Origin: a phage
Sequence record: PZ379545.1
DNA: 52,467 bases
Reading direction: 5' to 3' (one strand)
The notes under the pieces were generated by a model. That model was given only the letters and a program-made list of their open reading frames with translations. It was not told where the DNA came from and did not search any database. Both the position numbers and the translations under genes were made by a program. This document shows positions 13,575 to 52,159 of this stretch, piece after piece; position 1 is the stretch's first letter; each line of letters begins with the position of its first letter.

Positions 13575-14468
13575 GTTGCTGATGGCAAACTTGAGAGACT
13601 AAGCTAAATCGATCTGGCACGCACTGGAAGATTTCCGGTACTGCCTTGAACCCATTCCAGAGTGAGTGGGCTTCAATGAGCATTCTTGTGATTAGAGTTG
13701 GGAGGTAGGCCGATGCCCAAGCTCGTGGCCCAGACAAGAGTGTTCATTGAAGTAGTTTTCTGAGTCTTACGACGGGCCTAAGCTGCCTGAAGTTATTGCG
13801 ACTGTTTTATTCATTTAAAATAAATGCAAACGATTCTGAAATGCGAGTTGCAGCTTAATTAAATTTAAGTTCTCTCCGTGGTCTTCCAATCCCATGTAAC
13901 CAAATTTGGCGCATTGTGGCTTCGAGATGTGATTAATAAATCGGAGCAATAATTAATTTGTATTCTGCGATGCAAAGCAGGCTTAAGTCCTCCAGTGCGC
14001 GTGGGGATGTGACAGAGTACAAACTTAATTATGCAGTTGGATATTTCTAGAGGACGGACGAGCACACTGGAATGTCTTCAATTGGTTTAGTGTGAGAAGC
14101 TATGCTAATTTGAAACGTAACTCCTTGAGGAAGTGCTCCTCTGGATTTCCCTCCTCACAGGAATCTCAAACCTGTGGCAGCGACTTCGAAGCTGCACTGC
14201 GTAACCTTATTCGCTTTAAGTGAATTGCCCTGAGCATGGAAATAAACTGCTCAAACCAATGATGCCCATAACGATGGGATAAGTTAGGTTGCCTGTTGGT
14301 ACTTGGGTTCAACACCTGCTTGCACTCGCAAAGTAGTGCCTCGTACCTGAGATGAAGTGAGTCGGGACCATCAATCCCACGTTATGTCAAAACACAGTAG
14401 GCGACTCACAGATTCTACAAGCCTCGCAGTTCGGGAAAACCTGCGTTACCAAAACCCACACCCTATTC

Positions 14469-14564
14469 GGACGAGTAGCTCAGAAGGTCTGCTCCAGAGC
14501 TTAGTCAGGTAGAGCAATCTGTTAGACAGATGTGTCGTTGGTTCGAATCCAACCTTGTCCACCA
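14469..14564 (+). tRNA. tRNA-like element with encoded CCA; anticodon arm unresolved, possible pseudo-tRNA
   Basis: 7-bp acceptor stem (GGACGAG / CTTGTCC, one G-U), perfect T-arm (GTTGG-TTCGAAT-CCAAC), discriminator A and CCA. D-arm halves TAGCTCAG and GGTAGAGC are split by about 24 nt; best anticodon hairpin has a 5-nt loop. Confidence 0.4.
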
Positions 14565-14594
14565 GCTTTAATAACCCGCAACACTGGAGTCCTC

Positions 14595-14735
14595 ATGGAT
14601 TTTGATGCACTTGATAATTTAGACTTCGGTGCTGCCGAAGAAGCAATTGAAGAACTGAAGAAGAAGCAGGACGAAGAAGCAATCGTTCCTGGTGCTGGCG
14701 ACAACGACTGCTCAAGTGGTGCGTGCGCCATCTAA
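14595..14735 (+). CDS. Hypothetical small acidic protein
   Basis: 46-aa ORF, ATG 5 nt after GGAG. Confidence 0.4.
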   Translation: MDFDALDNLDFGAAEEAIEELKKKQDEEAIVPGAGDNDCSSGACAI

Positions 14736-14743
14736 GGTGATTC

Positions 14744-14980
14744 ATGCAACAGCTTAAATCAATCTTTCTTGGCGTCTTGACTGCATTGGGTATTCTCCTT
14801 GCAGTGTTCCTCAAAGGCAAAAGCTCAGGCAAAGCCGAGGAGCGTCAGGAAGCCAAAGAGAAGCAATTCGATTCCATTAAAGAATCTATCGAGATTAAAA
14901 CGCATGTTCAGAAAGAAGTGTCTAGCAGTTCTGATAGCAATGTCGATAGTGAGTTGCTCTCAAAGTGGGTTCGTAAGTGA
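14744..14980 (+). CDS. Putative i-spanin-like membrane protein
   Basis: 78 aa with N-terminal hydrophobic helix (IFLGVLTALGILLAVFL) then charged region; contains a nested lipoprotein ORF in another frame. Confidence 0.45.
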   Translation: MQQLKSIFLGVLTALGILLAVFLKGKSSGKAEERQEAKEKQFDSIKESIEIKTHVQKEVSSSSDSNVDSELLSKWVRK

Positions 14981-15113
14981 TTATTGCATGATTGCACAAC
15001 CAATCTATTTGGATGTTGCAGAAGTGAAAGTTTTGTCACGCGAAACCAAAACACAGATTTTAGTCCACAATGAAACGTGGGCACAAAAGTGTTCGAAACT
15101 TACCCGACAGTGA
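14904..15113 (+). CDS. Putative o-spanin-like lipoprotein, nested and overlapping the previous gene
   Basis: 69-aa ORF with lipobox-like LAVLIAMSIVSC; starts inside 14744-14980 in the +1 frame. Confidence 0.4.
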   Translation: MFRKKCLAVLIAMSIVSCSQSGFVSDYCMIAQPIYLDVAEVKVLSRETKTQILVHNETWAQKCSKLTRQ

Positions 15114-15496
15114 GTGAACATGGCCTAGCTAGTTGGTGGTGTAAAAGACTGACCAAGGTGACGACAGCCAAAGTATGGTCGAGTGGGATGCGCGACTTTA
15201 AATAACGTGAACCCAACCTTTCGAGGAAGTCGGTGAAAGCCCGCACGTTGCTCTGGGCATAACAATTGAAATTGCTGCCTCGCATTGAACGCGAGAAAGT
15301 TCAGGTGGTCACTTCCTAGAACAGTGTCCGAGAACACCCTCGCCAAAGTGCTTGAGAACGTTAGCTCTGTCTTGCCAGCATTAATGGCACGTTGGCCGCG
15401 TAAAGGCCACAGCGTCTGACCAACGTATCGGTTAAATCCGGTTCTAATTCAGGCTCCGGTGTATAAACAAAAGCCTACCAAATTCAATGGGATTTT

Positions 15497-15564
15497 CGTA
15501 TGTACGGGCTTGACCGTGGTGAAACGACCTGACTGGTTCGATTCCAGTGAATCCCCCGAACAAT
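15497..15564 (+). other. tRNA-like acceptor plus T-arm element without recognisable anticodon arm
   Basis: GGGATTT / GAATCCC acceptor pairing and perfect T-arm ACTGG-TTCGATT-CCAGT; the 36 nt between cannot be folded into D and anticodon arms by eye. Confidence 0.3.
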
Positions 15565-15983
15565 GGGTTCGTAGAGTTAAATTAAACCTGCACAATTGAG
15601 CGGGACAATAGTCCGAGGCCGACCGTGTAATTGTGAACGTGGAGTTCACCGAATCCACCACTTTCCTAACAGTTATGCCTCTGTTCAAAAGGCTCAAGAG
15701 AGCGTCTGGCATACCGTAGCGATACGGCTTAGTTGCGCTGATTGTGATGTGTCGAAAAGAAGTTCAGGCTTCTGATTGGAATCCTCCTTGTCCGATGTTA
15801 GCTGTATTCAAAATGCAGACTATGTTCCTATTCACATGAAATATGCAAGCCAAGGTTCTTAATGTTCAAACATGATGCGAGCATTAAGCGGGTTTTATTA
15901 CTTTTCCCCGAAAGTCCCTCATAAACAAGCGTGATTCACTTGGGCGGTTCGAATCAAACCTACTCAATTATCTGGAGAATCTT

Positions 15984-16253
15984 ATGGAAGCATATGTTAT
16001 TCCAATCAAAGACAATACCGAATTCGTTGTTGATGAAGTTGCTAAAGCAATCTTTAAAGACTTCATTGCATCAAACCTGAAGCCAGAAGACTTAGGTGCA
16101 GAACTTGGAGAAATCAAAACAGTTATGCGCGGGTTTGCTCGCTTGTCTTACGAAGCTGCGGAAGCACTTCAAGAAGTTAAATTGCATCGTGAATACGAAG
16201 CACAATCAGTTTTAAATGCGTCGCTAAAAGAAATACACGCGTCGTTAAAATAA
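15984..16253 (+). CDS. Hypothetical protein, first gene of the replication module
   Basis: 89-aa ORF; ATG after CTGGAGAAT RBS. Confidence 0.6.
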   Translation: MEAYVIPIKDNTEFVVDEVAKAIFKDFIASNLKPEDLGAELGEIKTVMRGFARLSYEAAEALQEVKLHREYEAQSVLNASLKEIHASLK

Positions 16254-16309
16254 GACCATTATAATGGTGCGGAGCTAATTAATCTCCCACCATATGAACC
16301 GGAGAGCAA

Positions 16310-16960
16310 ATGATTACTGCAACACTTGTTGACCACATGGGAAACGACCTGACAACTGTTAATGCTGCACGAGTTTCCTATGGTGCACAATCACTGTCTT
16401 TAACTATGCGCGACGAGAAGCTAATTGAGTTTCTTGCAAAGCATAAGCATATTACACCGTTCCGTCATGCACAGGTAACACTGCGCTGCAAAGCTCCAAT
16501 CTTCATTGCACGTCAGCTCGGCAAACATCAAACCGGCTTTAGTTGGAATGAGGTTAGCCGTCGATACAAAGATGGTGAGGCAATTGAAGTTGAATGCTTT
16601 GTTCCAGATAAAATCTTTGCACGACCTGATAAGCTGATGACTCAAACTGCTCAAGCTGTTGAGCCAGAAGTTGCCGATAATATTGCAACATATATTAAGA
16701 ACTTCAATGCTCGTGCAGTGCGTGAATATGAGGCATTAATTGGATTTGGTGTTGCACCAGAGCAAGCCCGAATGGTTCTTCCACAATCCATGATGACTGA
16801 ATGGGTTTGGACCGGCTCCCTCTACGGCTGGGCATCCATGTATAATCAACGTTCCTCCGAACATGCGCAATATGAAGTTCGCTTGTTTGCGGAAGAAGTG
16901 AATAAAATTATGTCAGAGTTGTTCCCAATTTGCTGGAAGGCTTTGACCAATCAGGAATAA
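16310..16960 (+). CDS. ThyX-family (flavin-dependent thymidylate synthase-like) protein with non-canonical active-site residues
   Basis: 216 aa; MGNDLTTVNAARVSY and KAPIFIARQ...SWNEVSRRY resemble ThyX, but the signature RHR position reads KHQ (QLGKHQ). Confidence 0.7.
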   Translation: MITATLVDHMGNDLTTVNAARVSYGAQSLSLTMRDEKLIEFLAKHKHITPFRHAQVTLRCKAPIFIARQLGKHQTGFSWNEVSRRYKDGEAIEVECFVPDKIFARPDKLMTQTAQAVEPEVADNIATYIKNFNARAVREYEALIGFGVAPEQARMVLPQSMMTEWVWTGSLYGWASMYNQRSSEHAQYEVRLFAEEVNKIMSELFPICWKALTNQE

Positions 16961-16964
16961 CTAA

Positions 16965-18728
16965 ATGAACGTCAAGCAATGTGTTGCCAAGATTAAACAC
17001 GATGTACCAGACTGTAAATCCACATCTGGCAAGTCTTTACAGGTTTGGTTGAATGTCGATGAAGCTGGTAATAAGAATTTCTCTGGTTACTGCTTTGCAT
17101 GTGGCGTTCTTGTACCAAATCCTTATGGCAATAATCCGGAGAACATTCCAGAGATTAAAGTCAAAACTCCAGAAGAAATTCAGGAAGAAATTGATGAAGT
17201 CACTGCTTGTCCTCCGTTTGATTTAGACCATCGCAGCATTGAGCCAGAATTTTGGAAAGCTGCTGGTGTCCGACTTCTGTATTCAGAGTATGATGGGAAG
17301 ACTCCAAATGCTCTGGCACATGGCTATACCAAAAATGGTAAACTTGTTCGTTGGAAGATTAAACTCCTGAACAAGAAAGTTATGTGGTCTGTTGGTGATA
17401 CACAAGGCAACGACCCATACAACTGGATGGCTGCAAAAGCAATTGGCGGTAAGACACTGTTCATCACAGAAGGTGAAGAAGATTGTATCGCATTGCGTCA
17501 AATCCTCAAGACTATGAACCGTGGTGGTGCATATGAAGATTTGGATTTTGCTGTAATTAGTTTGAGTGATGGAAGTGATTCCGTACACAAATGTTTGTCA
17601 CCAGTTGCAGAAGAAATTAAGCAACGTTGGGAGCAGGTTGTTATCGTATTTGATGATGATGAACCTGGACGTAAAGCTGCCAAAGAAGCGTGTCGTCTAT
17701 TGCCTGGTGCAATGATTGCAACTCTTCCAGCTAACGATGCCAACGACTGTCTGAAACGTGGCTTACTTAAAGCTACTCAGTCTGCTGTTGTATTCCGTGC
17801 TGCTCGTCCTTTGCCAACTGCACTCGTCAACAAAGAACTTCTTATGGAAGAACTTGATGATGAAGTTGAACAGGGTGTGGATTATCCTTGGACTAAGCTG
17901 ACCGACTTAATGTTTGGTCAACGTCGTGCCGAAGTTATCTCAATCGGTGGTGCAGAAGGTGGTGGTAAAACTACACTGTCTCGTCAGATTGTGCATCACA
18001 ACATTGTTCAGCATGATTGGGGTGTGTTTACTGCATACATGGAGGAAACTCCAGCGGAAACATTACGCCGTATGGCTGGCCTCAATGACAATTTACCATA
18101 TTGGGAACCTGCGTTTACACGCGAAGACCCTCGATATGATGAAGCTAAGTTCCGTCAAACTGCTGCGAAGATGCTTCGTAACATGGAGATTTGGGACCGC
18201 AAGCAAGCTGGAGAAGACCCTTATGAAACTTGGGATGGGTTAAAGACGATTCTTCGTCAGATTGGTCCAGACATTGATATGTTTGTTCTCGATAACTTAA
18301 CCTACTTATCGGAAGGGATTTCTGCGTCAGAGAAGAACGACTTTCTGGGCAAGCTGTATGCAGACATTACAAAGTTAGCAGACCAGTACCAGTTCCACGT
18401 TAATATTCTGTCGCACCTTAACCCTGTGGCAAAAGGTCAGCGACCTCATGAAGATGGTGGACGAATCAAGAAGTCAGACTTTACTGGCTCTCGTGCTGCT
18501 GCTAAATATTCTCATGGCATGTTTGGCTTTGAGCGTAATAGCCAGGCGGTAGACCCAAACTGCTCTATTATTCGTTCCATCAAAGCTCGTAAGAGTGGTA
18601 AAACAGAAGGTTTCAAGACGTACTATGATACCGACTCTGGTCGAATCATTCAACGCTCTTGGGAAGATTCACTGTTCGAAACTAAAGAGATTGTTCAACT
18701 TACTAAGAAGAACGGTCCACACCAATAA
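16965..18728 (+). CDS. Bifunctional DNA primase / replicative helicase (T7 gp4-like)
   Basis: 587 aa; N-terminal Cys cluster (CFACG), Toprim-like acidic motifs, Walker A GAEGGGKTT. Confidence 0.8.
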   Translation: MNVKQCVAKIKHDVPDCKSTSGKSLQVWLNVDEAGNKNFSGYCFACGVLVPNPYGNNPENIPEIKVKTPEEIQEEIDEVTACPPFDLDHRSIEPEFWKAAGVRLLYSEYDGKTPNALAHGYTKNGKLVRWKIKLLNKKVMWSVGDTQGNDPYNWMAAKAIGGKTLFITEGEEDCIALRQILKTMNRGGAYEDLDFAVISLSDGSDSVHKCLSPVAEEIKQRWEQVVIVFDDDEPGRKAAKEACRLLPGAMIATLPANDANDCLKRGLLKATQSAVVFRAARPLPTALVNKELLMEELDDEVEQGVDYPWTKLTDLMFGQRRAEVISIGGAEGGGKTTLSRQIVHHNIVQHDWGVFTAYMEETPAETLRRMAGLNDNLPYWEPAFTREDPRYDEAKFRQTAAKMLRNMEIWDRKQAGEDPYETWDGLKTILRQIGPDIDMFVLDNLTYLSEGISASEKNDFLGKLYADITKLADQYQFHVNILSHLNPVAKGQRPHEDGGRIKKSDFTGSRAAAKYSHGMFGFERNSQAVDPNCSIIRSIKARKSGKTEGFKTYYDTDSGRIIQRSWEDSLFETKEIVQLTKKNGPHQ

Positions 18729-22937: not shown

Positions 22938-23462
22938 ATGGCTTACGGTTATTGTGGAACGGAAGCCAAGTTTGTATCTTGGCTCCAATCTGCTATTCGA
23001 AGTGTTTGGTCTAAACACCCAAGCAAACTTGCGCTTATACAATCACGTCGCATTGCATTGAAGGTAGGTGACTCAAAGAAACCAATCTTCCACATTCAAT
23101 GCTACCATTGCAAGAAGTTGTATAAGCTCAAAGAGATTGAAGTAAACCACAAAGTTCAAGTTGGTGGCCTCCTTAAGTTGGAGGATTTACACCGCTTTGT
23201 GGACAACTTACTACTGGTTCAGCCAGAAGATTTGGAATTGCTGTGTAAAGATTGTCACGGCATTATTACATATATGGAACGATATGGTGTATCACGACGT
23301 GATGCAGTCATTGAGAAGAAGTGTATTGCATTTGCCAAACTAACTGACGAAGAGCAAATTGCCAAGTGCAATCTTGCCAAGATAGAGCCAGTTCCTAAAA
23401 CCAAAATCGGACGCAAGAATGCTGTTCGAGAATACCTGAGAAAGAATCTTAATGTCTATTAA
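22938..23462 (+). CDS. HNH endonuclease
   Basis: CYHCKK ... EVNHKV ... CKDCHG forms an HNH zinc-finger nuclease motif; 174 aa. Confidence 0.7.
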   Translation: MAYGYCGTEAKFVSWLQSAIRSVWSKHPSKLALIQSRRIALKVGDSKKPIFHIQCYHCKKLYKLKEIEVNHKVQVGGLLKLEDLHRFVDNLLLVQPEDLELLCKDCHGIITYMERYGVSRRDAVIEKKCIAFAKLTDEEQIAKCNLAKIEPVPKTKIGRKNAVREYLRKNLNVY

Positions 23463-24207: not shown

Positions 24208-24832
24208 TCTTGCCGTAATTCTAAATGGCCCACCTGGTTGCGGGAAAGACACCATAGCCAACTTAATTGTAGAACGGTGCAACTCTCTCAATCCAGTCAT
24301 CAAACATCAATTTAAGGATGCGCTGTATGAGCACACTGCTAAACATTATCAAGTTGACTTGGATAAGTTTATCCATTTCGCCAGTGACCGCGAGCTTAAA
24401 GACTCCGTGTCGTTGGCTGGGCTGCACGGGAAAACCCCGCGTCAGGCACTCATTCATGTTAGCGAAGACATATACAAGCCTCGCTACGGCAATGATTACT
24501 TTGGCTCGGTTGAGGCTAATCGTATCCGCGAACTTAAGGGGCGTGTACGTGGCCCTATTAATGTCATTTATCCCGATGGTGGCTTTGGAGATGAAGTTCT
24601 CGCAATTGAGTCTGAGTTTGATTGTGTACTCATTGTGCGCCTTCATCGTGATGGTTATGATTTCACGGGCGATTCTCGTAATTACCTCAACCTGCCAAAC
24701 ACTAAAACACGTTGGTCAGTTGACGAACACCTTTTAAATAACAAAATCTTTGATGGAGTCTGGAAAGTTGAAAACTGGATGGACCGAATCAAATGGAGCA
24801 TCGAAAATGAGTTGCATCACCCAAGTTGTTAA
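24200..24832 (+). CDS. P-loop nucleotide kinase, dNMP kinase-like
   Basis: Walker A GPPGCGKDT near N-terminus. Proposed TTG start at 24200 with GAGGAAAG RBS; the track ORF extends to 24098 and would overlap the ligase. Confidence 0.6.
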   Translation: MTNLAVILNGPPGCGKDTIANLIVERCNSLNPVIKHQFKDALYEHTAKHYQVDLDKFIHFASDRELKDSVSLAGLHGKTPRQALIHVSEDIYKPRYGNDYFGSVEANRIRELKGRVRGPINVIYPDGGFGDEVLAIESEFDCVLIVRLHRDGYDFTGDSRNYLNLPNTKTRWSVDEHLLNNKIFDGVWKVENWMDRIKWSIENELHHPSC

Positions 24833-25259
24833 AGTCAAGCGAGTACATCCTAATGCGAAATTACCTGTATATGCTACCACTGGTGCCGCTGCTGCTGATG
24901 TTTGTACAGTATCCGATAGCACTGTTGTTATCAATCCCGGCTGCTCTGTTGCTTTCGATACTGGCCTCCAGTTCGAAGTACCAGTTGGATACGAACTCAA
25001 AGTACATAGCCGTTCTGGTCATGGTTTTAAGTCTGGCATTCGCCTCGCTAACTGCACAGGAATTCTGGATTCCGACTATCGCGGTAATCTTATGGTTAAG
25101 CTCCATAACGACTCCGATACAGCCTTTGTGGTTCAACCAGGCGAACGAATCTGTCAAGTCCAAGTTAGTAAAGCTACTCAACACCATTTCGTTGAAGCTG
25201 TAGAACTTGATGCCACAGAGCGTGGAACTTCTGGTTTCGGCTCTACTGGTCGAGTTTAG
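24807..25259 (+). CDS. dut: dUTP diphosphatase (dUTPase)
   Basis: Motifs RSGHGFKSGIRLANCTGILDSDYRGNLMV and C-terminal GFGSTGR; ATG 24807 gives an E. coli Dut-sized product (150 aa). Confidence 0.85.
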   Translation: MSCITQVVKVKRVHPNAKLPVYATTGAAAADVCTVSDSTVVINPGCSVAFDTGLQFEVPVGYELKVHSRSGHGFKSGIRLANCTGILDSDYRGNLMVKLHNDSDTAFVVQPGERICQVQVSKATQHHFVEAVELDATERGTSGFGSTGRV

Positions 25260-51058: not shown

Positions 51059-52159
51059 ATGGCATACACTACTTTTTCACAAACCAAGAATGACCAACTT
51101 AAGGAACCAATGTTCTTTGGTCAGAACGTTAACGTTGCACGATATGACCAGCAGAAATATGGTATCTTTGAGAAACTTATCGAGAAACAATTGTCATTCT
51201 TCTGGCGTCCTGAAGAAGTAGATGTTTCCCAAGACCGTATTGATTATGCTGGTCTTCCTGATTGTGAGAAGCACATCTTCACAAGCAACTTACGCTACCA
51301 AATCCTGCTTGATTCCATTCAGGGACGTGGACCAACTACAGTTTTATTACCAATTGTGAGCATTCCTGAACTGGAAACTTGGATTGAAACTTGGTCCTTC
51401 TCAGAGACAATTCACTCTCGTTCTTACACACATATTATTCGTAACATTGTTACAGACCCAAGTGTAATCTTCGATGAAATTGTTGAGAATGAGCATATCC
51501 GCACTCGTGCAATTGGCATCTCCCAATATTATGACGAGCTTCAGCACCTAACTTCTATGTGGCATCTGCATGAAGATGAAGTAGACCTCCGTGAACTCAA
51601 GAAGAAACTCTACTTATGCCTCATGTCCATCAATGCTCTGGAAGCAATCCGCTTCTATGTTAGCTTTGCTTGCTCATTTGCCTTCGCTGAACGCAAGTTA
51701 ATGGAAGGAAATGCCAAGATTATTCGTCTGATTGCTCGTGATGAAGCACTCCATTTGACAGGAACTCAGCACATGCTGAACCTTCTTGCAAGTGGTGTTG
51801 ATGACTCAGAAATGGCTGAAATTGCCAAAGAATGTCACCAAGAATGCCAAGAAATGTTCGAAAATGTGGCCCAACAAGAGAAAGATTGGGCTGATTATTT
51901 GTTCAAAGATGGCTCAATGATTGGCTTAAACAAGCAAATTCTGTCTGGATATGTCGAATATATTACAAATATTCGTATGCAAGCAGTTGGATTAGATGCT
52001 CCATTCAAAGGTGCAACTAACCCGATTCCGTGGATTAACGCATGGTTAAACTCGGATGCTGTACAGGTTGCTCCACAAGAAACAGAGATTAGTTCGTATC
52101 TTGTTGGGCAGATTGACGCTGAAGTTGACACCGATGCTCTGGGTGGATTTGAATTATGA
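51059..52159 (+). CDS. nrdB: Ribonucleotide reductase class Ia small (R2) subunit
   Basis: 366 aa; N-terminus [22 protein letters not shown] and diiron/tyrosyl-radical segment [17 protein letters not shown] match enterobacterial NrdB as recalled. No nrdA-like ORF in the window. Confidence 0.85.

What the first reader, a model, noticed from the sequence alone, without database searches (positions are those of the whole stretch)
16310..16960. ThyX-family enzyme with substitutions at the RHR signature
The protein aligns by eye to flavin-dependent thymidylate synthase (MGNDL..V.AARVS, KAPIF.ARQ, S.RY, SEHAQ). At the position of the ThyX signature RHR-x7/8-S the sequence reads KHQ-x8-S, and a second arginine position recalled from bacterial ThyX appears to be Gly. 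These arginines hold the dUMP phosphate in canonical ThyX. The gene sits with a P-loop kinase, dUTPase and nrdB, so it may act on a different nucleotide (possible DNA base modification) or be a diverged thymidylate synthase.
Basis: partly seen in the sequence, partly recalled or inferred. Interest (0 to 1): 0.7.

Follow-up and report, generated by a model that had tools for sequence, protein, structure and literature searches.

The report
Phage ThyX with variant signature motif
This coliphage gene is a flavin-dependent thymidylate synthase (ThyX) whose textbook R-H-R signature reads K-H-Q, but that variant is normal for a very large, mostly viral branch of the family and most likely still makes ordinary thymidylate.

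Summary
The ORF at 16310-16960 (+), 216 aa, is real and is a full-length ThyX (Pfam Thy1 E=5e-43; AF2 model pLDDT 93, TM 0.80 to T. maritima ThyX). Tool alignment confirms K72-H73-Q74-x8-S83 where T. maritima has R78-H79-R80-x7-S88. The substitution is not peculiar to this phage. K-H-Q is present in 114 of 120 close homologues. Lys occupies the first position in 128 of 150 representatives at 50% clustering, and only 2 of those are RHR. No RHR was found in 159 relatives from bacterial genomes and viral contigs. Loss of the third Arg co-varies with a gained Arg next to the signature Ser (S-R-R-Y instead of S-[G/Q/A]-R-Y): 217+100 concordant versus 16 discordant among 333 sequences. Equivalents of Tm E86, S88, R90, Y91, E144, R147 and R174 are essentially invariant in relatives; R74, Q75 and H53 are kept in the query. 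Dependentiae genomes carry the same class (RHT, RHV, KHV) as a chromosomal thyX-dcd pair beside ribosomal and tRNA-synthetase genes. The phage also encodes dUTPase and a T5-type dNMP kinase and has no ThyA homologue. A relative's DNA cuts normally with NdeI and MbiI. Verdict: an ordinary, selected (dN/dS 0.18) thymidylate synthase of an uncharacterised motif class. A different substrate is unlikely.

The parts
16310..16960 (+). thyX coding sequence (216 aa, stop included): flavin-dependent thymidylate synthase of the 'S-R-R-Y' motif class
   Evidence: ORF list; Pfam Thy1 PF02511 E=5.2e-43, residues 5-206 over profile 1-190/191; PHROG_85 thymidylate synthase E=2.4e-70; PDB ThyX hits at about 1e-30; AF2 model pLDDT 93.1 and Foldseek TM 0.80 to T. 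maritima ThyX; dN/dS 0.176
16301..16305 (+). Shine-Dalgarno-like GGAGA, 5 nt before the ATG
   Evidence: Read directly from the sequence
16523..16531 (+). codons AAA CAT CAA = K72-H73-Q74, at the position of the canonical R-H-R (Tm R78-H79-R80)
   Evidence: Sequence; HMMER alignments; MAFFT column counts
16556..16567 (+). codons for S83-R84-R85-Y86. S83, R85 and Y86 are Tm S88, R90 and Y91. R84 is the extra Arg that co-varies with loss of the third motif Arg (Tm Gly89, PBCV-1 Gln89, PolB Ala97)
   Evidence: Sequence; co-variation table; position shown to line the dUMP phosphate pocket in PBCV-1 and PolB
16622..16651 (+). active-site loop R105-P-D-K-L-M-T-Q-T-A114. It is clade-specific but conserved, and it replaces the R-P-x-N-x-K-Q-G-S motif of the rest of the class. 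It lies about where PolB 'Loop 1' falls by residue spacing (my inference)
   Evidence: Alignment A1; per-position conservation 0.85-1.0 in 120 close homologues; PolB Loop 1 description
16769..16771 (+). codon for R154 (Tm R147), dUMP-binding Arg
   Evidence: Arg in 332 of 333 sequences, the other gapped
16850..16852 (+). codon for R181 (Tm R174), the uracil-contacting Arg
   Evidence: Arg in 331 of 333 sequences, the other two gapped, and in 150 of 150 representatives
16965..18728 (+). primase/helicase gene starting 5 nt after the thyX stop, which places thyX in the replication module
   Evidence: ORF list; annotation of relatives
   Evidence: PHROG_139 dNMP kinase E=9.8e-42; tblastn to the flopper homologue
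24807..25259 (+). dUTPase, which supplies dUMP
   Evidence: Pfam dUTPase E=5e-22, PHROG_135 E=1e-56
51059..52156 (+). ribonucleotide reductase small subunit NrdB
   Evidence: 96% identical to flopper NrdB by tblastn

Best explanation
The gene encodes a working flavin-dependent thymidylate synthase. It methylates dUMP, supplied by the phage dUTPase, to dTMP, which the phage dNMP kinase then phosphorylates to feed the adjacent replication machinery. It belongs to a large, mostly viral ThyX class in which the R-H-R signature is replaced by [K/R]-[H/Y/S]-x-x-G and the residue after the signature Ser is Arg (S-R-R-Y). Shown here: family membership, fold, retention of the residues probed mechanistically in T. 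maritima, class-wide co-variation, purifying selection and pathway context. Inferred: that Lys72 keeps the ribose/flavin contact of the first Arg, that Gln74 keeps only a hydrogen bond to the flavin phosphates, and that Arg84, sitting at the dUMP phosphate pocket, supplies the lost positive charge.
For: Membership and fold: Thy1 E=5e-43 over the whole profile; model pLDDT 93.1 and TM 0.80 to T. maritima ThyX. Residues: query H53, R68, Q69, E81, S83, R85, Y86, E151, R154 and R181 correspond to Tm H53, R74, Q75, E86, S88, R90, Y91, E144, R147 and R174. E81, R85, Y86, R154, R181 and Q187 are essentially invariant in 333 sequences of both classes; H53 and R68 are kept in 231 and 237 of them. Class-wide trait: KHQ in 114 of 120 close homologues; Lys first in 128 of 150 representatives, RHR in 2 of 150, Arg84 in 138 of 150; all 79 genome-derived and 80 viral relatives from the A2-seeded scans are non-RHR with S-R-R-Y. 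Co-variation: third position Arg with non-Arg at 84 = 100; non-Arg with Arg84 = 217; exceptions 16. Position 84 lines the phosphate pocket: the PBCV-1 Gln89 side chain can occupy it, and PolB Ser96'-Ala97'-Arg98' bind the phosphate (mapped). Cellular housekeeping use: in TM6/Dependentiae L054 an RHT...SRRY thyX overlaps dcd and sits beside rplS and a class II aaRS; the same thyX-dcd pair occurs in L039 (RHT), L069 (RHV) and L060 (KHV). Pathway context: dUTPase and dNMP kinase in the window, no ThyA homologue. Selection: dN/dS 0.176. Inteins inserted right at the motif in P0124 and P0248; inteins typically target functionally critical sites (general knowledge). PYps23T (ThyX 87% identical) DNA is cut by NdeI and MbiI as predicted.
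Against: I found no member of the S-R-R-Y class that has been assayed or crystallised. All PDB relatives whose motif I could read are RHR-type or lack Arg at this position. The Chaseviridae clade has its own conserved version of the active-site loop (R-P-x-K-L-M-T-Q-x-A), and residues in the corresponding PolB loop affect catalysis and substrate preference. The compensation idea is not obligatory, because one viral clade (KHV...SGRY, 12 contigs) lacks both arginines. The co-variation count is not corrected for phylogeny and reflects only a handful of independent clades. I could not verify that Dependentiae lack ThyA. The restriction digests are on a relative, use two enzymes, and would miss subtle or partial modification.
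Confidence: 0.8

Rival explanations
1. The substitutions are simply tolerated. The third motif Arg is dispensable for ThyX and Arg84 is a lineage marker, not a compensating residue. The enzyme is still a thymidylate synthase.
For: A viral clade with KHV...SGRY has neither arginine, and two S-N03-like contigs have RHK...SQRY. Two sequences have both arginines (RHR or KHR with SRRY), so the two states are not mutually exclusive. The third position is highly variable within the class (Q, K, T, V, M, S, I, E), as expected for a position under relaxed constraint.
Against: The near-complete association (317 concordant versus 16 discordant) holds across several distant lineages: Chaseviridae, Schitoviridae, Bacillus and Streptomyces phages, and Dependentiae. 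Position 84 lines the dUMP phosphate pocket in PBCV-1 and PolB.
Confidence: 0.25
2. The enzyme acts on, or releases, something other than dUMP/dTMP (for example dCMP, UMP or 5-hydroxymethyl-dUMP) and starts a DNA base modification.
For: The signature is altered at nucleotide/flavin-contact residues. The clade-specific conserved active-site loop differs from the rest of the class, and a residue in the corresponding PolB loop (Tyr126) affects UMP methylation. ThyA homologues have repeatedly been recruited for modified bases, including a flavin-using dCMP hydroxylase, so there is precedent in the analogous family.
Against: Uracil-contacting R181 and R85 are invariant. The motif variant is shared with chromosomal thyX-dcd operons. 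No ThyA-like hydroxymethylase was found in the window, the kinase is a dNMP kinase, and no glycosyl- or aminoacyl-transferase is annotated in the relative flopper. PYps23T DNA digests as predicted. Flopper was sequenced from Nextera libraries without reported problems.
Confidence: 0.06
3. The protein is a catalytically dead ThyX relic kept for another role (structural, regulatory, or nucleotide binding only).
For: It departs from the published RHR-x7-S signature, and no assay exists for this class.
Against: All residues probed mechanistically in T. maritima are retained. dN/dS is 0.18. The class is used in a housekeeping operon in Dependentiae. Conservation is strongest at the active-site motifs in the 120 close homologues.
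Confidence: 0.03

Closest known systems
Thermotoga maritima ThyX / FDTS (TM0449; PDB 1kq4, 1o26 and many mutants)
   Same: Same fold (TM 0.80, about 36% identity) and similar length. It also lacks the N-x-K-Q-G-S loop motif. H53, R74, Q75, E86, S88, R90, Y91, E144, R147 and R174 all have identical counterparts in the query.
   Different: R78-H79-R80-x7-S88-G89 versus K72-H73-Q74-x8-S83-R84: a Lys and a Gln replace the two motif arginines, there is one extra residue in the spacer, and an Arg replaces Gly89.
ThyX of other phages in the S-R-R-Y class (Chaseviridae such as phiEcoM-GJ1, flopper, Y2 and PYps23T; E. coli phage Bas92; Schitoviridae VBP32 and A38; Bacillus phage Eoghan; Streptomyces phage Elmer), all annotated 'thymidylate synthase'
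   Same: Same class signature ([K]-[H/Y]-x ... S-R-R-Y) and same genomic role among replication or nucleotide-metabolism genes.
   Different: Only the Chaseviridae clade has the R-P-x-K-L-M-T-Q-x-A loop, and Bas92 has a related variant. Bacillus and Streptomyces phages have also replaced the motif His by Tyr. I found no biochemical characterisation of any of them.
Chromosomal ThyX of Dependentiae/TM6/Babeliales (loci L054, L039, L060, L069)
   Same: 38-44% identical. Same class: third motif Arg absent (RHT, RHV, KHV), the class Gly at the query G76 position, and S-R-R-Y.
   Different: Cellular, longer N-terminus, retains the K-Q-G-S loop motif, and forms an overlapping thyX-dcd gene pair next to rplS and an aminoacyl-tRNA synthetase.
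PolB of Streptomyces cacaoi (PDB 4p5a-c), the ThyX-family UMP/dUMP C5-methylase of polyoxin biosynthesis
   Same: ThyX fold and flavin/folate-dependent C5 methylation. The contact map transfers residue for residue: PolB F79, R82, R86, E94, S96, R98 and Y99 correspond to query F65, R68, K72, E81, S83, R85 and Y86.
   Different: PolB has Arg at the first motif position and Ala, not Arg, after the Ser. It has its own Loop 1 and Loop 2 with Tyr126 favouring UMP, and it sits in an antibiotic gene cluster.
Canonical RHR-type phage and viral ThyX (PBCV-1 A674R; cyanophage S-N03-like; Mycobacterium phage Bixzunavirus; Rhodobacter phage RcGingersnap)
   Same: Same family and presumed role in viral dTMP supply.
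   Different: They keep R-H-R and have Gln, Gly or Ala, not Arg, after the signature Ser.

Membership tests
ThyX / flavin-dependent thymidylate synthase (Pfam Thy1, PF02511) | Full-length match to the family profile above the curated cut-off | tested here: met
   147.5 bits against a cut-off of 24.8, residues 5-206 on profile 1-190/191; PHROG_85 E=2.4e-70
ThyX / flavin-dependent thymidylate synthase (Pfam Thy1, PF02511) | ThyX fold | tested here: met
   AF2 pLDDT 93.1, pTM 0.88. The 50 listed Foldseek PDB matches are all T. maritima ThyX chains, TM about 0.80, E about 1e-18
ThyX / flavin-dependent thymidylate synthase (Pfam Thy1, PF02511) | Literal ThyX signature R-H-R-x7-S (Myllykallio 2002, as used in PMC2826268) | tested here: not met
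   The query reads K-H-Q-x8-S. The same is true of nearly the whole class: RHR in 2 of 150 representatives and in none of 159 A2-seeded loci. The literal signature therefore describes only part of the family
ThyX / flavin-dependent thymidylate synthase (Pfam Thy1, PF02511) | Residues shown by mutagenesis or structure to bind dUMP, folate or flavin in T. maritima (H53, R74, Q75, E86, S88, R90, Y91, E144, R147, R174) | tested here: met
   All are identical in the query (H53, R68, Q69, E81, S83, R85, Y86, E151, R154, R181). E81, R85, Y86, R154 and R181 are essentially invariant in 333 sequences; H53 and R68 are not (231 and 237 of 333)
ThyX / flavin-dependent thymidylate synthase (Pfam Thy1, PF02511) | Homotetramer with FAD bound and the active site formed by three subunits | not testable with these tools
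   Only a monomer model could be made, and no ligand or multimer prediction was available
ThyX / flavin-dependent thymidylate synthase (Pfam Thy1, PF02511) | dUMP to dTMP activity with CH2H4folate and NAD(P)H; complementation of thyA | not testable with these tools
   An experiment is required. I found no published assay of any S-R-R-Y-class member
ThyX / flavin-dependent thymidylate synthase (Pfam Thy1, PF02511) | Genomic context consistent with dTMP supply | tested here: met
   dUTPase and dNMP kinase are in the same genome, thyX abuts the primase/helicase, and there is no ThyA. Class relatives are in thyX-dcd operons
'S-R-R-Y' ThyX class (informal, defined here) | [K/R]-[H/Y/S]-x-x-G ... 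[N/S]-E-x-S-R-R-Y, with a non-Arg third motif residue | tested here: met
   K72-H73-Q74-T75-G76 ... N80-E81-V82-S83-R84-R85-Y86; class statistics
PolB-type UMP/dUMP methylase (nucleoside-antibiotic ThyX homologue) | PolB-specific Loop 1/Loop 2 with Tyr126, and location in a nucleoside antibiotic cluster | tested here: not met
   The query loop is R-P-D-K-L-M-T-Q-T-A with no Tyr, and the gene is in a phage replication module. Whether UMP is accepted cannot be told from sequence
Phage thymidine/cytidine hypermodification pathways (ThyA-like hydroxymethylase or hydroxylase plus kinase/transferases) | A ThyA-family pyrimidine hydroxymethylase or hydroxylase is encoded | tested here: not met
A very divergent homologue could be missed
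Phage thymidine/cytidine hypermodification pathways (ThyA-like hydroxymethylase or hydroxylase plus kinase/transferases) | A modification kinase or transferases accompany the synthase | tested here: not met
   The P-loop kinase matches PHROG_139 dNMP kinase, E=9.8e-42. No transferase is annotated in the relative flopper. Many small ORFs remain unassigned
Phage thymidine/cytidine hypermodification pathways (ThyA-like hydroxymethylase or hydroxylase plus kinase/transferases) | Virion DNA resists restriction enzymes or contains non-canonical nucleosides | tested here: inconclusive
   Literature only: PYps23T DNA gives the predicted MbiI and NdeI patterns apart from terminal-repeat fragments. No nucleoside analysis of any Chaseviridae phage was found

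The most novel reading that the evidence does not exclude
The S-R-R-Y class, and within it the Chaseviridae clade with its own conserved active-site loop, binds the nucleotide and flavin in a different way from all crystallised ThyX enzymes. That difference could give an altered substrate or product spectrum (for example UMP as in PolB, or release of 5-hydroxymethyl-dUMP), so that some of these phages make a non-canonical pyrimidine. A milder version: the chemistry is the same but flavin or reductant handling differs, which would matter for ThyX inhibitor design and for motif-based annotation.
Probability: 0.07. Interest if true: 0.7.

Novelty: new member of a known kind. Interest (0 to 1): 0.25.

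Why it matters
For this phage it matters little: it is the expected thymidylate-supply gene of a Chaseviridae coliphage, already annotated as such in relatives. The wider point is modest but useful. That class has a paired change (third Arg lost, Arg gained after the Ser), and I found no solved structure or assay for it. Studies that filter ThyX sequences by the literal signature (for example PMC2826268) would discard many of these sequences. Inhibitor work built on RHR-type active sites may not transfer to them.

Tried and rejected
- The 28-sequence alignment A1 was too diverse for the genome scan; I replaced it with the 8-sequence A2.
- Literature on mutagenesis of the RHR residues: Ulmer et al. 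2008 (PMC2258874) is not held. A residue-number search returned only unrelated papers. PMC3352284 and PMC5954106 had no residue-level data.
- The 2026 NAR paper on 5-hydroxycytosine looked promising but concerns ThyA homologues, not ThyX. I kept it only as an analogy.
- The listing of cluster members gave no organism names for the representatives.
- Searches for Dependentiae thymidylate metabolism and for restriction or modification data on Carltongylesvirus beyond PYps23T found nothing useful.
- My first hmmalign column table was shifted by two residues because of terminal trimming. I discarded it and recomputed it.
The coordinates show they correspond to Tm R74 and Q75, and PolB Arg86 is the first motif Arg. 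This is corrected in the report.
- I considered and rejected a pseudogene or relic (dN/dS 0.18, active-site motifs the most conserved) and a 5-HMUDK-type modification kinase for the P-loop protein (it matches dNMP kinase).

Full report
**1. What is there**

The ORF at 16310-16960 on the + strand encodes 216 aa. A GGAGA sits 5 nt before the ATG. The primase/helicase gene starts 5 nt after the thyX stop.

The window is a phiEcoM-GJ1-like Chaseviridae coliphage. Its closest records (DE15, flopper, Bp7, ST32, phiEcoM-GJ1) are about 89-93% identical in nucleotide sequence over 14-22 kb, and all annotate this gene as thymidylate synthase.

The protein matches Pfam Thy1 over the entire profile (E=5.2e-43) and PHROG_85 'thymidylate synthase' (E=2.4e-70). 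Its best solved relatives are Thermus and T. maritima ThyX (E about 1e-30 to 1e-32). An AlphaFold2 model built on a 28-sequence alignment has mean pLDDT 93.1, and the 50 listed Foldseek PDB matches are all T. maritima ThyX chains with TM about 0.80.

**2. The observation**

HMMER places K72-H73-Q74 under T. maritima R78-H79-R80, with one extra residue in the spacer, so the signature is K-H-Q-x8-S instead of R-H-R-x7-S.

The claim that a second arginine is replaced by Gly could not be reproduced. Tm R74, R90, R147 and R174 are all present as R68, R85, R154 and R181. The nearby glycines, G71 and G76, align with non-Arg residues of the T. maritima enzyme. The query actually gains an arginine: R84 stands where T. 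maritima has Gly89.

The 'sits with' statement is loose. The dNMP kinase and dUTPase are 7-8 kb downstream, and nrdB is at 51.1-52.2 kb.

**3. The substitution is a class trait, not an oddity of this gene**

- K-H-Q is present in 114 of the 120 closest database clusters, which are 67-96% identical to the query.
- Among the 150 best representatives of a library clustered at 50% identity (39-56% identical to the query), the first position is Lys in 128, the motif is K-H-Q in 72, and only 2 read R-H-R. Position 84 is Arg in 138.
- A scan of one genome per species returned 80 loci. All 79 that could be parsed are non-RHR and carry S-R-R-Y.
- Phage picks across the identity range show two states. 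The query, E. coli phage Bas92, Schitoviridae VBP32 and A38, Bacillus phage Eoghan, Streptomyces phage Elmer and a TM6 bacterium have KHQ, KHK, KYV, KYA or RHT together with S-R-R-Y. A Mycobacterium phage, a cyanophage, a Rhodobacter phage and T. maritima have R-H-R together with S-[G/Q/A]-R-Y.

I then seeded further viral scans from both types and aligned all hits to one HMM, which gave 333 sequences:

| Third motif position | Position 84 | Count |
|---|---|---|
| Arg | not Arg | 100 |
| not Arg | Arg | 217 |
| Arg | Arg | 2 |
| not Arg | not Arg | 14 |

Of the 14 with neither arginine, 12 belong to one KHV...SGRY viral clade. These sequences are related to each other, so the count reflects a handful of independent lineages and is not a probability.

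**4. What the substituted residues do**

- A review assigns the RHR motif mainly to hydrogen bonds with the AMP phosphate, ribityl and FMN phosphate of FAD. The first Arg also touches the isoalloxazine ring and dUMP.
- Basta et al. list Tm R78, R80, S88 and R90 as direct dUMP contacts. They also note that the PBCV-1 Gln89 side chain can occupy the dUMP phosphate pocket.
[quoted passage not shown] The ribose O3' is held by Glu94' and Arg86.

The coordinates of a fragment alignment (query 61-89 on PolB 75-102) give this map:

| PolB | Query | T. maritima |
|---|---|---|
| F79 | F65 | F71 |
| R82 | R68 | R74 |
| H83 | Q69 | Q75 |
| R86 | K72 | R78 |
| E94 | E81 | E86 |
| S96 | S83 | S88 |
| A97 | R84 | G89 |
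| R98 | R85 | R90 |
| Y99 | Y86 | Y91 |

Three points follow. The phosphate-clamping Arg of the first monomer (query R68) is retained. The first motif residue (query K72) is a ribose and flavin contact that a Lys can plausibly still make. The residue after the Ser (query R84) sits at the phosphate pocket.

My inference is that Arg84 replaces the positive charge lost at position 74. This is not shown, and the KHV...SGRY clade shows that it is not obligatory.

**5. Evidence that the class makes thymidylate**

(a) The residues probed mechanistically in T. maritima appear as mutant structures in the PDB lists: H53A/D, S88A, R90A, Y91F, E144R and R174A/K. All are conserved in the query. E81, R85, Y86, R154, R181 and Q187 are essentially invariant across both classes. 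H53 and R68 are kept in 231 and 237 of the 333 sequences. In particular the uracil-contacting arginines are unchanged. A switch to a cytosine substrate would be expected to alter them. That expectation is by analogy with ThyA versus dCMP hydroxymethylase and rests on established knowledge, not on a test here.

(b) In the TM6 bacterium GW2011_GWF2_37_49 (L054, a 124-kb contig), an RHT...SRRY thyX overlaps the start of dcd (dCTP deaminase, Pfam DCD E=2e-33). It lies next to ribosomal protein L19 and a class II aminoacyl-tRNA synthetase. The thyX-dcd pair recurs in L039 (RHT), L069 (RHV) and L060 (KHV). That is a housekeeping, dUMP-supplying context in cellular genomes.

(c) The phage itself encodes a dUTPase (Pfam E=5e-22) and a T5-type dNMP kinase (PHROG_139, E=1e-41). 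No ThyA homologue is detectable in the window.

(d) The gene is under purifying selection, with dN/dS 0.176 against flopper and against L082 at dS of about 0.65. The active-site motifs are the best-conserved parts of the protein.

(e) Two homologues, P0124 and P0248, carry an intein with an HNH-type domain inserted immediately after K-H-Q-x-G-F. Inteins typically target functionally critical sites; this is general knowledge.

(f) DNA of Yersinia phage PYps23T, whose ThyX is 87% identical to the query (P0015), gives the MbiI and NdeI patterns predicted in silico, apart from terminal-repeat fragments.

**6. What remains unusual**

I found no solved structure and no published assay for any S-R-R-Y-class enzyme.

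Within the class, the Chaseviridae clade has replaced the widely conserved loop motif R-P-x-N-x-K-Q-G-S with R-P-x-K-L-M-T-Q-x-A, and this version is conserved at 0.85-1.0 within the clade. By residue spacing, the loop corresponds roughly to PolB 'Loop 1'. That loop orders over the bound substrate, and its Tyr124 and Tyr126 affect catalysis and UMP preference. T. maritima ThyX lacks the K-Q-G-S motif altogether and is fully active, so its absence is not disqualifying. Still, this loop, rather than K-H-Q, is the feature that leaves most room for altered specificity.

**7. Verdict**

One detail (Arg to Gly) is not reproducible and the neighbourhood claim is loose. The 'different nucleotide / base modification' reading is unsupported. 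The 'diverged thymidylate synthase' reading is supported, with the refinement that the divergence defines a large, mostly viral ThyX class with a paired motif change.

| Reading | Confidence |
|---|---|
| Functional dUMP to dTMP synthase | about 0.8 |
| Altered substrate or product | about 0.06 |
| Dead relic | about 0.03 |

Whether Arg84 truly compensates for the lost Arg is open; the 'merely tolerated' alternative gets about 0.25. Interest is low to modest. The gene is an ordinary member of a known family. The class-level motif variant is worth a note for annotation and for ThyX enzymology.

Noticed in passing
homologues P0124 (480 aa) and P0248 (352 aa); insertion point corresponds to window about 16540 (after F77): Inteins carrying an HNH-type endonuclease domain are inserted in ThyX homologues directly after the K-H-Q-x-G-F motif, that is, inside the variant signature.
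   Followed up: partly
L054 3264-7265 (TM6 bacterium GW2011_GWF2_37_49); also L039, L060, L069: Dependentiae genomes have an overlapping thyX-dcd (dCTP deaminase) gene pair next to rplS and a class II aminoacyl-tRNA synthetase. Their ThyX lacks the third motif Arg (RHT, RHV, KHV) and has S-R-R-Y.
   Followed up: partly
L327-L331, L333-L337, L339, L341 (viral contigs found with the T. maritima seed): A viral ThyX clade reads K-H-V ... S-G-R-Y. It has neither the third motif Arg nor the extra Arg after the Ser, so the proposed compensation is not universal.
   Followed up: no
L164, L166, L272-L324 (Bacillus and Streptomyces phage ThyX): These ThyX proteins read K-Y-[I/V/A] ... S-R-R-Y, so the His of the R-H-R signature is also replaced (by Tyr).
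   Followed up: no
window 16622-16651 (R105-A114): The Chaseviridae clade has its own conserved active-site loop (R-P-x-K-L-M-T-Q-x-A) in place of the R-P-x-N-x-K-Q-G-S motif that is about 90% conserved in the rest of the class. E. coli phage Bas92 has an intermediate version (R-P-S-D-L-H-A-G-S-G).
   Followed up: partly
window 13600-16000: The stretch upstream of thyX has only short ORFs on the + strand. The 15000-17100 scan found no sigma-70-like promoter (3.7 expected by chance). There are no tRNA genes anywhere in the window. This fits transcription by the phage's own RNA polymerase (548-2485), but I did not examine it.
   Followed up: no
window 22938-23462: An HNH-endonuclease-like ORF (174 aa), annotated as HNH endonuclease in flopper, lies between the 5'-3' exonuclease and the DNA ligase. 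Relatives differ in the number of HNH genes in this replication module: DE15 has one and phiEcoM-GJ1 has two in the matched region.
   Followed up: no
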